A stretch of DNA of 64,000 nt from contig OX597820.1 in assembly GCA_951406725.2 (NCBI GenBank), positions 118,544,001 to 118,608,000 on the forward strand, in the 5' to 3' direction. Under the pieces are notes generated by a model. The model was not told the DNA's origin, made no database searches, and saw only the letters and a list, made by a program, of their open reading frames with translations. Below are positions 1,679 through 62,967 of the stretch, piece by piece. Every line of letters begins with the position of its first letter. The first letter of the stretch is position 1. A program made the translations under genes and the position numbers. The stretch comes from Octopus vulgaris. Taxonomy: Eukaryota.

Positions 1679-1948
1679 ATATTAATAGTTATCGCCATAC
1701 TAATATGGCAGTCTAAATATAAGACTAAAGCTGTCGCTGATTAGCTCCAAGAGGCCACCACCTCTAGCTAGCTATATGGCACACGAACCTGCGTCCATTA
1801 CAAGCTAGAGGCGGTGGCCTCTTGGACTAATCAGCGACAGCTTTAGTCTTATATTTAGACTGCCATATTAGTATGGCGATAACTATTAATATCCAGTAAC
1901 GCTGCCGTAATCTCCTTTAGAGAGACTTAGTAATTTTAATATTTCTAA
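1679..1948. mobile_element. Family A retrozyme/Penelope-like non-autonomous element fragment forming a ~90-bp inverted repeat, in (TA)n
   Basis: Arms 1679-1769 and 1803-1892 are near-perfect reverse complements; near-identical to 62845-62967, and 1916-1948 matches 62632-62664; TA runs on both sides. Confidence 0.8.
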
Positions 1949-2557
1949 TATATATATATATATTAATCAGTCTAATGTAGCTTGCCTGGTTTAAGTTCTA
2001 ATAATGGTGTACACATGTCTATAGAACATATTACAATGAAAGCTATCAAATAATATCTTTTGTTAGAGAGGAACAAATGCATATTTAGCAATGACACCAC
2101 CGTTGCTGGACGAATTTGTTTTAACATCATTCGTCAATAAAAAATATTGTGTCGAGACGAATAACGCAGTTAGCCTACTTTTGACGATGGATCTGCTTTG
2201 TATACGACACAAAGATTTCTGTTTTGAATTAATACTGCTTCTGTTGCTCATAAAGAATTTTTATTCAGCCCTCCTGCTAATTGCAAGATCGGACATTTTT
2301 CAGTCACTGTTTTCCTAGCGGCTGATTTTATCTTAGCATTCCGATGTCAGTTGATACTAGCTACGGACGAAGCTGAAAGACGCAGAAATACGCATTTAGC
2401 AATGGTACCACCATTGCTCAACGATTTTCGTCTGTTATTGAGACATTTCTGTATTTTTAACACTGTACGTCTATAAGAGATGCGATCTTGTGACAAATAC
2501 CGCAGTTTATTAGGCTTTCAACGATGTATCTGCTTCAAGTTTGATACACAGACTCTG

Positions 2558-2720
2558 ATATATATATATATATATATATATATATATATATATATATATA
2601 TATATATATATATATATATATATATATATATATATACATACATACATATAAAAACATACATACATACATACATACATGCATACATACATTCATACATGTG
2701 TGCGTGTGTGTGTGTGTTAA
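2558..2720. repeat. (TA)n/(TACA)n/(TG)n compound microsatellite
   Basis: Direct reading. Confidence 0.95.
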
Positions 2721-2978
2721 TATGTATGCATACATGTGTGAGGAAGCGAGACTGCACCCTAGAATTCGATTCGCCAGAAGTTCATATTGATATACTTTAC
2801 CGCTACACAAAGGTTTTTATCAAGAAGAATTGGTACATACTTTATTGTACATCATTTACATGGCTCTGGGGGTAAACGTCTTTAACCGTCGCCGGGGAAC
2901 AATACAAGTGTTTCCAGTCACTGGATCAACAAAAAGAGAAAAGTATTGGAAAACCGTAAGGTAGAATAACTATTGTGG

Positions 2979-3291
2979 CAATTAAGGCGGCGTGCTGGTA
3001 GAATGGTTACGATTCGGTGGAAGGCGTGAAATAATATTCTCTGAACGCCTTACTTCCCTTACAATTAAGGCGGCGTGCTGGTAGAATGGTTAACGTGCGG
3101 TGGAGGGCGTGGAATAATCTTCTCTGAACGCCTTACTTCCCTTACAATTAAGGCGGCGTGCTGGTAGAATGGTTAACATGCGGTGGAGGGCGTGGAATAA
3201 TCTTCTCTGAACGCCTTACTTCCCTTACAATTAAGGCGGCGTGCTGGTAGAATGGTTAACATGCGGCGGAGGGCGTGGAATAATCTTCTCT
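2979..3291 (+). repeat. 83-bp tandem repeat x ~3.8 containing the head of a family 2 SINE
   Basis: Units start at 2979, 3062, 3145 and 3228 (caattaaggcggcgtgctggtagaatggtta...). Confidence 0.9.
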
Positions 3292-3460
3292 GCAATTCAT
3301 TTGTCATTATGTGCTGAGTTGAAATTCTACAGATGTCCAGTTTGCTTTTCGTCTTTGAGGGTCGATAAAATAAGTACCTCTTGAGTACTAGGGTTGTTGT
3401 AATTGACTTAGCAGCTACCCCAAAAATGCTGCCCTTGTGCCAGAAAGTTGTAACCATTAT
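3292..3460 (+). mobile_element. Diverged body of a family 2 SINE (Nin/Deu-like domain)
   Basis: ctgagttgaaattc...tttgcttttcgtctttgagggtcgataaaataagtacc...gcccttgtgccagaaagttg. Confidence 0.7.
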
Positions 3461-3789
3461 TTTACTAAGCTGTAAAAAAGAAACAGTTGCAAATACGCAT
3501 AGCCGTTTCTCGAGGGGAGCGTAAGCAATTTAAGTTTTGTGAGCAGGGATTAAAGTTCCGCACGAATAGGGAATTGCCCGGTCTACCTGTCCGTCTATCT
3601 AACAAACTAACTACATAACACTTTAGGTATGTGCAAACATCATGCGCTCTAACACACATAAACCTATATCTGTGCATATCTAACAAACAATGCAAGCGCA
3701 TGTAGTCATGTGTGTATACGTATTTATATATTACTGTGCGTTTGTCTGTGTATGATTTTGTGTATCGCTATATGAGAATGCATTCACAT

Positions 3790-60736: not shown

Positions 60737-60990
60737 TCTTCTTCTTCTTCTTCTTCTTCTTCTTCTTCTTCTTCTTCTTCTTCTTCTTCTTCTTCTTCTT
60801 CTTCTTCTTCTTCTTCTTCTTCTTCTTCTTCTTCTTCTTCTTCTTCTTCTTCTTCTTCTTCTTCTTCTTCTTCTTCTTCTTCTTCTTCTTCTTCTTCTTC
60901 TTCTTCTTCTTCTTCTTCTTCTTCTTCTTCTTCTTCTTCTTCTTCTTCTTCTTCTTCTTCTTCTTCTTCTTCTTCTTCTTCTTCTTCTTC
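60737..60990. repeat. (TTC)n pure triplet repeat, ~85 units
   Basis: Direct reading. Confidence 0.97.
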
Positions 60991-61032
60991 TTTATTATTT
61001 CTATTACTATTATTAATATTATTATTGTTACA

Positions 61033-61428
61033 GCGGCGAGCTGGCAGAAACGTTAGCACGGCGGGCGAAATGCTTAGCGGTATTTTCGTCTGTCGCTACG
61101 TTCTGAGTTCAAATTCCGCCGAAATCGACTTTGCCTTTCATCCTTTCGGGGTCGATTAAATAAGTACCACTTACGCACTGGGTCGATATAATCGACTTAA
61201 TCCCTTTGTCTGTCTTTGTTTGTCCTCTCTGTGTTTAGTCCTTGTGGGTAGTAAAGAAATAGGTATTTCGTCTGCTGCTACGTTCTGAGTTCAAAAACCA
61301 CCGGGGTCGATTTTACCTTTCCGCCTTTCGGAGTCGATAAATTAAGTACCATTCAAGAACTGGGGTCGATATAATCGACTGTTGCCCACCCCACAAATTC
61401 CAGGCCTTGTGCCTATTAGTAGAGAGGA
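61033..61428 (+). mobile_element. Family 2 SINE dimer whose second unit has a different subfamily tail
   Basis: Junction aaagaaatagg|tatttcgtctg at ~61263; second tail ggccttgtgcctattagtagagagg. Confidence 0.85.
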
Positions 61429-61576
61429 TTACTCTTGTTATTAATATTAATTAATGATTTACTGTGGGTTGCATTTGTCATTATTTTGATTTTAAACCGA
61501 ATTTTTATTTTTTAACTCTATTCTGGTTTAATTACGACATCGTGTGGTCTATCTTATTCTATAAATTTAAATACTT

Positions 61577-61989
61577 GTTTACTCTTTACTCTTTTACTCT
61601 TTTACTTGTTTCAGTCATTTGACTGCGGCCATGCTAGAGCACCGCCTTTAATCGAACAACTCGACCCCGGGACTTATTCTTTTGTAAGCCCAGTACTTAT
61701 TCTATCGGTCTCTTTTGCCGAACCGCTAAGTTACGGGGACATAAACACACCAGCATTGGTTCTCAAGCGATGCTAGGGGGACAAACACAGACACACAAAC
61801 ACACACATACATACATATATACATATATACGACAGGCTTCTTTCAGTTTCCGTCTACCAAATCCACTCACAAGGCATTGGTCGGCCCGGGGCTATAGTAG
61901 AAGACACTTGCCCAAGGTGCCGCGCAGTGGGACTGAACCCGGAACCATGTGGTTGGTAAACAAGCTACTTAGCACACAGCCACTCCTCT
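61577..61989 (-). mobile_element. SINE family 1
   Basis: Reverse complement of the 7772-type element. Confidence 0.9.
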
Positions 61990-62584
61990 ACGACTTATTT
62001 TTAATGATTATTCGACTCATCTCAATGTTTGCATTACTTTCCGTTACGGCTAACCGCTTTTTTTTTTCATCCAGCCACATACTGTTATCTTGAAAAGTGG
62101 TGGCCCTATCAGCTTTAAATGCTTATGCATTGAGTGGATAAACATGAACACAGATGAAAACTTGTAAATCGAAGAGGCCAGGGAGCAGAAGAAAGAAGAA
62201 GAAAGAAGACATGCACCCAACACCAGAGCTGAAGACACCTCCGAAAGGGAGGTCCTGCCACGTCAAAACGGTAGTGGAGTAGGGGCCGAAACCGGACGTG
62301 GTTCCTTCTGATGATATCTTGAGCTAACTGGATCCTATAAAAGAGCTGTTGTGGTAGCAGACCACGAAACACGGTTGTAATTCCTTCCTATTATTATCTT
62401 GACTTCTCACAACAGTCTAACAGTCAAGTGAATGTCTGAGTAGGCGTTTGAGAAATTTTTCAGCTTTAGTAAATTAGTATCATATAATTTTGGTATCTCT
62501 GTAATATTTTCTCCCTCATCTTTTGCACCTATGGGCTCACATAAGTGTATCTATCTAGTATAATGCTTATTGTGCGAAGATATG

Positions 62585-62967
62585 TTTAGTCTTATATTTA
62601 GACTGCCATATTAGTATGGCGATAACTAAGTCTTTAGAGAGACTTAGGAATTTTAATATTTCTATTATTGAAAACAAGTGGATGTATTCCACTGTAACTA
62701 GGTAAATAAAATCTTCGAACAGACGGTCAGTAGCGACACCTGCTGGTTCTGACTACGCTGCATTGATAAAGGGCAACAACCCTGAAACATGTCTGCAGAT
62801 GTCTGACTAGCAAGGTGAAGCGGCTGACCTCCCTGTTCGAAGGTTGTAATGGACGCAGGTTCGTGTATCATATAGCTAGCTAGAGGCGGTGGCCTCTTGG
62901 AGCTAATCAGCGACAGCTTTAGTTTTATATTTAGACTGCCATATTAGTATGGCGATAACTATTAATA
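62585..62967 (+). mobile_element. Family A retrozyme-like element: terminally redundant ~333-bp unit with an HHR, ending in (TA)n
   Basis: 44-bp direct repeats at 62585-62628 and 62918-62961 (1 mismatch); central HHR; no ORF. Confidence 0.75.
62758..62798 (+). ncRNA. Type I hammerhead ribozyme, U3-A8 core variant
   Basis: CTGCA-TTGATAA-AGGG-CAACAA-CCCT-GAAA-CATG-TC|TGCAG: 5-bp stem I, 4-bp stem II, palindromic stem III ACATGT, predicted GUC cleavage after 62793. Confidence 0.85.

What the first reader, a model, noticed from the sequence alone, without database searches (positions are those of the whole stretch)
1679..62967. Four unrelated HHR-bearing short element families plus a Penelope RT in one 64-kb window
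Seen: family A (1.7, 6.5, 21.1, 62.6 kb), B (22.2 kb), C (20.2, 54.3 kb) and D (54.5 kb) share no obvious primary sequence. All show minimal-HHR architecture, and A, B and D show inverted partial duplication. Several A and B copies sit in or abut (TA)n. A decayed Penelope RT/GIY-YIG lies at 49.1-50.9 kb. Inference: a dense community of non-autonomous ribozyme elements mobilised in trans by Penelope proteins and targeted to, or seeding, TA microsatellites. At this density the genome could hold very many self-cleaving motifs inside introns.
Basis: partly seen in the sequence, partly recalled or inferred. Interest (0 to 1): 0.78.

Follow-up and report, generated by a model that had tools for sequence, protein, structure and literature searches.

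The report
Ribozyme-tipped scraps of Penelope retrotransposons
Three of the four short "ribozyme elements" match the tail ends of three different full-length Penelope-like jumping genes, and only one is a protein-less passenger that likely borrows their enzymes, so this is mostly known biology with a few odd ribozyme cores worth testing.

Summary
The repeat families and their minimal hammerhead (HHR) folds are real, but the interpretation mostly fails.

B is the pLTR/tail end of a young, intact 3.35-kb autonomous Penelope-like element (711-aa ORF, Hydra-type motifs, 99-100% identical to the window copy). C runs upstream into a Neptune-type endonuclease, D into another endonuclease. The dead 49-kb Penelope has its own, fifth HHR family and shows no link to A-D.

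Only A is non-autonomous: a ~362-nt tandem unit in several subfamilies with a covarying HHR. Just one of the window's four A copies keeps the ribozyme.

The window is not unusually HHR-dense: 2-3 hits against ~1.5 expected from 24 per Mb. (TA)n targeting is strong for B, present for A, C and D, and absent for the Penelope. Many cores are non-canonical: C has A at position 6 in only 91 of 8,325 exact copies. No host gene was identified, so "inside introns" is untested.

Minimal HHRs, U3-A8, inversions, tails, TA targeting and retrozymes as non-autonomous PLEs are all published. Possibly new: inverted B insertions pair one short with one long end (19 of 19), and A copies mostly do too (18 of 22).

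The parts
62585..62964 (+). Family A1 insertion: 5'-truncated partial unit plus one ~362-nt unit, ending at the short 3' site against (TA)n
62758..62798 (+). Minimal type I HHR, U3-A8 core, 4-bp stem II, palindromic loopless stem III; the only fully conventional HHR in the window
   Evidence: 1 hit vs 0 in 40 shuffles; 169 exact copies of the 37-mer in the genome; covariation
1679..1947 (.). Family A1 copy, 5'-truncated downstream of the HHR: inverted arm 1679-1806 (short end) and direct arm 1803-1947 (long end), both at TA; no HHR
21066..21298 (-). Family A2 copy between two (TA)n tracts; inversion at 21254/21255 cuts the HHR, only its 3' half remains; intact family copies have a C3-G8 core
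6434..6582 (-). Family A3 3' fragment, no HHR
   Evidence: profile E=2e-15; this copy was not in the seed
22152..22388 (.). Family B: fold-back of the pLTR/tail of a young Hydra-type PLE; long arm 22152-22309 (RNA sense -), short arm to 22388 (+); both 3' ends in (TA)n
22256..22293 (-). B HHR: canonical boxes, A.A at 10.1-11.1 closing a 2-bp stem II; second copy at 22317-22355 (+) has an extra base in stem I
20140..20394 (+). Family C: 3' end of a Neptune-type PLE
20259..20294 (+). C HHR with U at position 6 and an inserted A after A9
54290..54358 (-). Degenerate C fragment without the first catalytic box
54518..54787 (.). Family D fold-back, old (77-86% to relatives); HHR 54583-54618 (-) with a broken first stem-I pair; right arm lacks the core
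49021..49094 (-).
49083..50882 (+). Decayed Penelope/Poseidon-type PLE, 5'-truncated and 3'-broken, four frames (RT, GIY-YIG-like end)

Best explanation
The window holds 5'-truncated, often folded-back 3' ends of four separate ORF-bearing Penelope-like retroelements (B, C, D and the 49-kb element), plus four copies of one ORF-less ~362-nt tandem hammerhead unit (A) that is likely copied in trans by a PLE protein. Shown: family links to ORFs, two fixed 3' end sites per family about 60-70 nt apart, TA tracts at the ends, one short and one long end on inverted B insertions. Inferred: the GIY-YIG endonuclease nicks both strands of an existing (TA)n tract; reverse transcription starts inside the RNA at either of the two sites that bound the 'tail'; one strand uses each site; the two cDNAs stop early and join, often at a microhomology such as CTAG, which gives fold-back scraps 200-400 nt long. 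The HHR sits just upstream of these sites, so it is the part most often kept. It is copied uncleaved, and it likely cuts weakly, only as a dimer or with protein help, or not at all in C and many B copies. Which PLE moves A is unknown; a TA-targeting Hydra-type element is my best guess.
For: B: upstream it runs into a 1.1-kb AT-rich UTR and an endonuclease, downstream into an ORF start. 2,468 exact matches to the window's 36-mer include direct pairs 3,352-3,365 nt apart. Three fetched loci hold intact 711-aa ORFs, 99.2-99.8% identical to one another, flanked by B at 99-100%. C: L377 is endonuclease-UTR-C in partial tandem and L390 repeats the link. D: endonuclease pieces in 2 independent loci (L089/L101, L093). 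A: head-to-tail units (three HHRs 362 nt apart in L362); no contiguous PLE ORF in 85 A loci probed with 7 baits from four PLEs; HHR covaries across 9 subfamily representatives (position 3-8: 4 C-G, 4 U-A, 1 U-G; 86.7% of cells paired vs 71.1 shuffled, 0/500); unit folds at z=-5.5. Ends: 38 of 42 B termini have (TA)5 within 12 nt vs 3.8% background; 19 of 19 two-ended B insertions and 18 of 22 A1 insertions pair short with long. In vitro, a PLE protein cuts and extends both strands, starts at two internal sites that define the tail, and does not need HHR cleavage (PMC11167929).
Against: The C and D links rest on 2 inspected loci each; no intact ORF was seen for either. No autonomous partner of A was found, and only four PLE families were compared. 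A1 pairing has 4 exceptions in 22, and the window's A2 copy is short/short. Covariation counts do not correct for relatedness. TA association is only partial for D (8 of 21) and A2 (6 of 16). Clade names come from motifs, not a tree; the 711-aa ORF has no Pfam hit. No expression or cleavage data.
Confidence: 0.85

Rival explanations
1. One reading: A-D are all short non-autonomous ribozyme elements moved in trans by Penelope proteins such as the one at 49 kb.
For: Most copies are short and ORF-less; each family has an HHR fold.
Against: B, C and D each join their own ORF. The 49-kb family has its own pLTR, is old, shares no significant protein similarity with the B ORF, and 0 of 17 of its ends are near TA.
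Confidence: 0.04
2. A subset of the short copies (the 237-bp B palindrome, or the ~255-nt C unit that often starts at one site) became secondary masters that now spread as non-autonomous elements.
For: About 21 of 30 query-selected B loci share the window's exact junction; 2 of 11 short fold-backs among the first 100 pattern hits have its spacing; many C copies start near the same 5' site.
Against: The commonest B junction (5 of 11) is a self-complementary CTAG that explains recurrence by microhomology; short and full-length copies share sequence at 99-100%; both ends are 3'-type ends, as expected from fresh two-strand priming.
Confidence: 0.2
3. Family A is the solo pLTR of an autonomous PLE not sampled here, or spreads by a DNA-level route, not by capture of a PLE protein.
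For: Only 85 loci and 7 protein baits were tested; solo pLTRs dominate the other families.
Against: Every long A1 copy extends into another unit, never into a unique UTR; ends, truncations and inversions follow the PLE pattern.
Confidence: 0.12
4. The elements seed (TA)n tracts by non-templated addition instead of inserting into existing ones.
For: Nearly all B ends have TA; empty sites were not seen.
Against: The B RNA continues into non-TA sequence past both end sites, so TA is not templated; 16 of 30 C copies also have TA within 150 nt upstream vs 12.8% background; TA insertion is reported for Hydra and Naiad PLEs (PMC8557442).
Confidence: 0.1

Closest known systems
[quoted passage not shown]
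   Same: Loopless palindromic stem III, short stem I, inserted base after A9, U3-A8 variant, thousands of solo motifs attributed to truncated PLEs, pairs on opposite strands 100-700 bp apart.
   Different: That paper reports a highly conserved G10.1-C11.1 pair; here A1 has A-U, B has A.A, A-U or A.G, and A2 has C.A. Family C has U6, not seen in the parts I read.
Hydra-clade PLEs (Craig et al. 2021, PMC8557442, section 11)
   Same: Parent of B: RWK and DKT motifs, C-terminal endonuclease without CCHH, CxxC and CxH, HHR, (TA)n insertion.
   Different: Unit is 3.35 kb (reported generally under 3 kb); the linker has Phe where CxCx5C has its second Cys; tail is ~70 nt against 30-40 nt.
Non-LTR retrozymes as non-autonomous PLEs (PMC7229834; bioRxiv 10.64898/2026.07.22.740005); non-autonomous Chlamys elements such as MRC1 (PMC8557442)
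   Same: Family A: ~360-nt ORF-less tandem unit with one type I HHR per unit, highly structured.
   Different: A is dispersed in one- to three-unit insertions with PLE-type tail ends, inversions and TA targeting, which is direct structural evidence for PLE mobilisation; its HHR is minimal; no parent pLTR was found; circular RNA was not tested.
PAc Poseidon element in vitro (Frangieh et al. 2024, PMC11167929)
   Same: Both strands nicked and extended, two internal RT start sites bounding the tail, AT-rich targets, HHR cleavage dispensable, predicted dimer.
   Different: That study saw no difference in start site between strands in bulk; here single genomic insertions use one of each site (19 of 19 for B).

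Membership tests
PLE minimal HHR | Core boxes C3UGANG8A or U3UGANA8A, and GAAA, with UH cleavage triplet | tested here: met
   Met for A, D, E and young B; C is treated in the next row
PLE minimal HHR | A at position 6 (family C) | tested here: not met
   91 of 8,325 exact matches have A6; U6 in 95 of the first 100 listed
PLE minimal HHR | Palindromic, loopless or near-loopless stem III | tested here: met
   A subfamilies CATG, CGCG, CTAG, CTCGAG, CTGCAG; C and E CG; D TA; B one-base loop
PLE minimal HHR | G10.1-C11.1 closing pair | tested here: inconclusive
   Met in C and E; G-U in most D; unpaired in 4 of 9 A representatives; A.A in young B
PLE minimal HHR | Self-cleavage as a dimer | not testable with these tools
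   needs in vitro transcription
Hydra-clade PLE (parent of B) | Single ORF with RT and C-terminal endonuclease, RWK and DKT motifs | tested here: met
   711-aa ORF read; nearest Atlas clusters are ~700-aa proteins, then GIY-YIG/RVT clusters; motifs
Hydra-clade PLE (parent of B) | No CCHH in the endonuclease; CxxC and CxH near the conserved E and N | tested here: met
   read from the translation
Hydra-clade PLE (parent of B) | CxCx5C linker | tested here: inconclusive
   second Cys replaced by Phe
Hydra-clade PLE (parent of B) | (TA)n insertion and HHR in the pLTR | tested here: met
Hydra-clade PLE (parent of B) | Placement in the clade by RT phylogeny | not tested
   no reference sequences on hand
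Neptune/Nematis-type PLE (parent of C) | CX2-5CxxC finger upstream of a C-terminal GIY-YIG that holds two Cys | tested here: met
   L377 translation; Pfam GIY-YIG only at E=0.13; feature; no tree
Non-LTR retrozyme (family A) | Head-to-tail short units, each with a type I HHR | tested here: met
Non-LTR retrozyme (family A) | No protein-coding capacity | tested here: met
   no contiguous PLE ORF in 85 loci; two loci hold separate remnants 0.8-1.2 kb away
Non-LTR retrozyme (family A) | Expressed as circular RNA | not testable with these tools
   only contigs of runs guessed to be RNA were available
Non-autonomous PLE (family A) | Partial tandems, 5' truncation, 5' inversion, tail at one end | tested here: met
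Non-autonomous PLE (family A) | Sequence similarity to the end of an autonomous partner | tested here: inconclusive
   no BLASTN match to B, C, D or E ends; other PLE families not sampled
Non-autonomous element (families B, C, D) | Family never continuous with an ORF | tested here: not met
MITE (considered for 21.1 kb and B) | Fixed terminal inverted repeats shared by all copies | tested here: not met
   A2 relatives lack the 41-bp inverted end; B ends differ from each other

The most novel reading that the evidence does not exclude
PLEs integrate by obligate asymmetric twin priming: a dimeric protein nicks both strands of a (TA)n tract and its two RTs start at the two ends of the tail, one each. 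Family A is an ancient, structured RNA parasite of that machine. In these elements the hammerhead is kept as a fold for the RNA-protein complex, not as a cutter, so a core with U6 could fill about 48,000 loci while position 7 varied freely. The young intact Hydra-type element would let all of this be rebuilt in vitro.
Probability: 0.35. Interest if true: 0.62.

Novelty: new member of a known kind. Interest (0 to 1): 0.3.

Why it matters
As a class it matters little: truncated PLE ends with minimal hammerheads and non-autonomous retrozymes are published. Three points are useful. (1) A young, intact, TA-targeting Hydra-type PLE is a ready substrate for the still-open PLE integration mechanism, and the 19-of-19 short/long end rule is a sharp prediction for it. 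(2) Family A carries PLE integration signatures on an ORF-less unit, which supports in an invertebrate the proposal that retrozymes are moved by PLEs. (3) A fixed U6 core and 10.1-11.1 mismatches warn that HHR counts in such genomes overstate active ribozymes, and they are cheap to assay.

Tried and rejected
Rfam: no hammerhead among the 150 of 273 matches shown for the window, none at gathering score in 6 loci.

The repeat finder was swamped by microsatellites and was replaced by a masked self-BLAST.

A search with an 80-nt B piece returned nothing, which is uninformative, since a pattern found 2,468 matches.

Sequencing runs: no RNA holder listed. Contigs of runs guessed to be RNA covered parts of A1 and of the B parent, but they cannot show expression, ends or circles and are not used.

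Host gene: 167 of the 180 masked-window ORFs of 62 aa or more were scanned, plus five. They gave one sub-threshold C2H2 hit and no host domain; short exons would be missed, so the intron question stays open.

Close C pairs (L396, L397, L399, L400) and one A1 pair (L351/L352/L398) held no PLE ORF between them. Other Hydra-like remnants (L191, L185, L170, L264) showed no A-like end on reading.

A twister reading of the A 3' domain was dropped on inspection (consensus recalled, not tested). A MITE reading was rejected.

Earlier scan findings: none.

Lunse et al. (HHR variants of PLEs) and Arkhipova et al. 2017 are not held; either may already describe U6 cores or the end pairing. The supplements of the bioRxiv preprint and of the PMC papers were not seen.
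Full report
Setting. The window is G000:C7:118544001-118608000 of a 2.8-Gb animal assembly. I read it as octopus-like from its size, contig count and the recalled look of its SINEs; this was not looked up. A masked self-BLAST confirms the fold-backs at 1679-1892, 21068-21297, 22223-22388 and 54518-54787.

HHR motifs in the window. A strict minimal-HHR descriptor finds one hit, 62758-62798, against 0 in 40 block shuffles. Looser versions give 2 vs mean 0.25 and 3 vs mean 0.73, with shuffle maxima of 2. 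Allowing U6 and a 10.1-11.1 mismatch adds C at 20.26 kb and B at 22.29 kb. The other listed copies lack all or part of the ribozyme. Rfam showed no hammerhead among the 150 of 273 matches listed or in six loci at gathering score.

Family A. The 62.6-kb copy belongs to a head-to-tail unit of about 362 nt; one locus has three HHRs 362 nt apart. The 1.7-kb copy is the same subfamily, truncated downstream of the HHR. The 21.1-kb and 6.5-kb copies are other subfamilies: BLASTN does not join them to A1, but a profile of five real copies finds all four window copies. Across nine hand-picked subfamily representatives the 3-8 pair is C-G four times, U-A four times and U-G once; 86.7% of cells pair against 71.1% in shuffles (0 of 500), a control that ignores relatedness. 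Stems I and III also change in compensated fashion on reading. The unit folds at -122 kcal/mol against -93 +/- 5. Seven protein baits from four PLEs found no contiguous ORF in 85 A loci; two loci hold separate remnants 0.8-1.2 kb away. Long copies extend into further units, not into a UTR. A is therefore non-autonomous by the evidence in hand, and its partner was not found.

Family B. Incidental copies showed an upstream extension. Following it led through an AT-rich UTR to an endonuclease and, downstream, to an ORF start. The window's 36-mer has 2,468 exact matches, many as pairs 1-5 kb apart. Of eight regions picked for pair spacing, three hold an intact 711-aa ORF flanked by B at 99-100% identity to the window copy; the unit is 3,352 nt and the ORFs are 99.2-99.8% identical. 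The protein has no Pfam hit and no significant match to the window's RT. Its nearest Atlas clusters are ~700-aa proteins and then GIY-YIG/RT proteins. It carries the Hydra-clade motifs RWK, DKT, no CCHH, CxxC and CxH, with an imperfect linker (PMC8557442 section 11). The window's B is thus an extreme truncation plus inversion of a young autonomous PLE. The HHR varies within the family: U4C is common in older long copies, and 10.1-11.1 is A-U, A.G or A.A.

Families C and D. C continues upstream into a pyrimidine-rich UTR and a Neptune-type endonuclease, in partial tandem in L377 and again in L390. Three of 59 C loci hit that bait, one of them not inspected. Its HHR has 8,325 exact matches with positions 6-7 free, only 91 with A6; position 7 takes all four bases. 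A natural A6C variant is reported as weakly active (PMC3088659, passages; PMC7151607, passages). D is old (77-86%), has a complete minimal HHR in most relatives, and joins endonuclease pieces in two independent loci of 25 fetched. No intact ORF was seen for C or D.

The 49-kb element. It has an RT and a GIY-YIG-like end in four frames. Its 29 best relatives match it at 83-90% and the longest open frame among 150 scored is 569 aa. Its own 3' end carries a fifth HHR (family E); the window has an inverted piece of it at 49021-49094. Nothing links it to A-D.

Ends and targets. Of 42 B termini in mostly position-ordered loci, 38 have (TA)5 within 12 nt, against 3.8% of random positions; for A1 it is 16 of 29. 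TA lies 60-140 nt downstream of the HHR in 19 of 30 C and 8 of 21 D copies (background 9.5%), near 0 of 17 E ends, and at 6 of 16 A2 short ends. B and A1 each have two 3' end sites about 60-70 nt apart. All 19 two-ended B insertions pair one short with one long end (counted; overlapping loci once, single-ended loci left out). A1 does so in 18 of 22 (after dropping L357, a duplicate of L010). The B RNA continues into non-TA sequence beyond both sites, so the TA comes from the target or from untemplated addition. TA upstream of C copies (16 of 30 vs 12.8%) favours targeting.

Density. A systematic 1-Mb sample (100 x 10 kb) holds 8 B, 17 C, 0 D and 17 E insertions and 11 A-type hits, counting one seed and two short fragments inside another repeat. 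The descriptor gives 24 hits against 0-4 in eight shuffles, about 67,000 per genome (43,000-100,000). The window's 2 hits are ordinary (expected 1.5, P=0.45). Its 9 family copies exceed the 3.4 expected (P=0.008), but the families were defined from this window, and it is TA-richer than average (5.4% vs 3.2%). No host gene was identified.

Mechanism. Shown: family structure, ORF links, end sites, TA association. From the literature: a PLE protein nicks and extends both strands, starts at two internal sites that bound the tail, and works without HHR cleavage (PMC11167929, main text). Inferred: one strand is primed at each site, early stops and microhomology joins give the fold-backs (5 of 11 short B fold-backs join at CTAG), and A borrows such a protein. 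Confidence 0.85 for the family assignments; lower for obligate asymmetry and for the partner of A.

Prior art. Minimal HHRs, U3-A8, the inserted base, solo motifs from truncated PLEs and low activity: PMC4209133 (parts 1-2 of 4). Partial tandems, inversions, a tail at one end, TA targeting and non-autonomous PLEs: PMC8557442 (passages and sections 6 and 11). Retrozymes: PMC7229834 (passages), PMC6765202 (passages) and bioRxiv 10.64898/2026.07.22.740005 (parts 1-3 of 5), which also reports depletion from genes in Xenopus and cleavage in 1 of 9 dimers tested. An Octopus vulgaris repeat annotation lists recently active Penelope-like families, and its main text has no 'ribozyme' or 'hammerhead' (PMC13282606, passages). 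Searches showed no octopus HHR study, no A6U core and no short/long pairing rule in their listings, but Lunse et al. and Arkhipova et al. 2017 were not available and supplements were not seen.

Verdict. Real, mostly known, and partly misread. New members of known kinds; interest 0.3.

Noticed in passing
L326, L327, L333 (G000:C1): Young Hydra-type PLE with intact 711-aa ORFs, 99.2-99.8% identical; possibly still active and missed by Pfam.
   Followed up: yes
window 53925-54110: Another TA-associated repeat family (F; 2 per Mb in the sample) with a CUGANGA box and an upstream GAAA but no clean HHR fold; possibly a type II or decayed ribozyme.
   Followed up: partly
window 62180-62330: Repeat G (1 per Mb in the sample) with a CUGAAGA box and a hairpin; looks like a decayed HHR.
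   Followed up: partly
window 14460-17850: 3.4-kb complex satellite built of 26-, 40-, 67-, 86- and 153-nt units.
   Followed up: no
window 25868-26650 and 28660-29144: 184-nt SINE-like unit in tandem arrays forming a large inverted pair; many dispersed copies in the window.
   Followed up: no
window 2979-3292: 83-nt unit repeated 3.8 times, derived from the head of the same SINE-like repeat.
   Followed up: no
window 26764-27084 (-): 107-aa frame with C2H2-like zinc fingers (Pfam zf-C2H2_4 E=7e-4, below cut-off); possibly the end of a LINE.
   Followed up: partly
window 39318-40262 (+): 314-aa frame with a CCHC-like knuckle, resembling a LINE ORF1; no Pfam hit. Similar frames occur in L351 and L352.
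   Followed up: partly
window 44300-45260 and 60296-60607: Fragments that look like LINE reverse-transcriptase ends (recalled resemblance; no Pfam hit).
   Followed up: partly
L335:9376-9998 (9.4-10 kb right of the window): Remnant of another Neptune-type PLE, 39% identical to the parent of C.
   Followed up: partly
L166-L265 (1-Mb sample): At least six further minimal-HHR families not present in the window, and four more Hydra-like PLE remnants at 29-50% identity.
   Followed up: partly
L142, L163 and other family E loci: The 3' UTR of the 49-kb Penelope family holds a tRNA-like stretch (by eye) and a variable trinucleotide tract just before the HHR.
   Followed up: no
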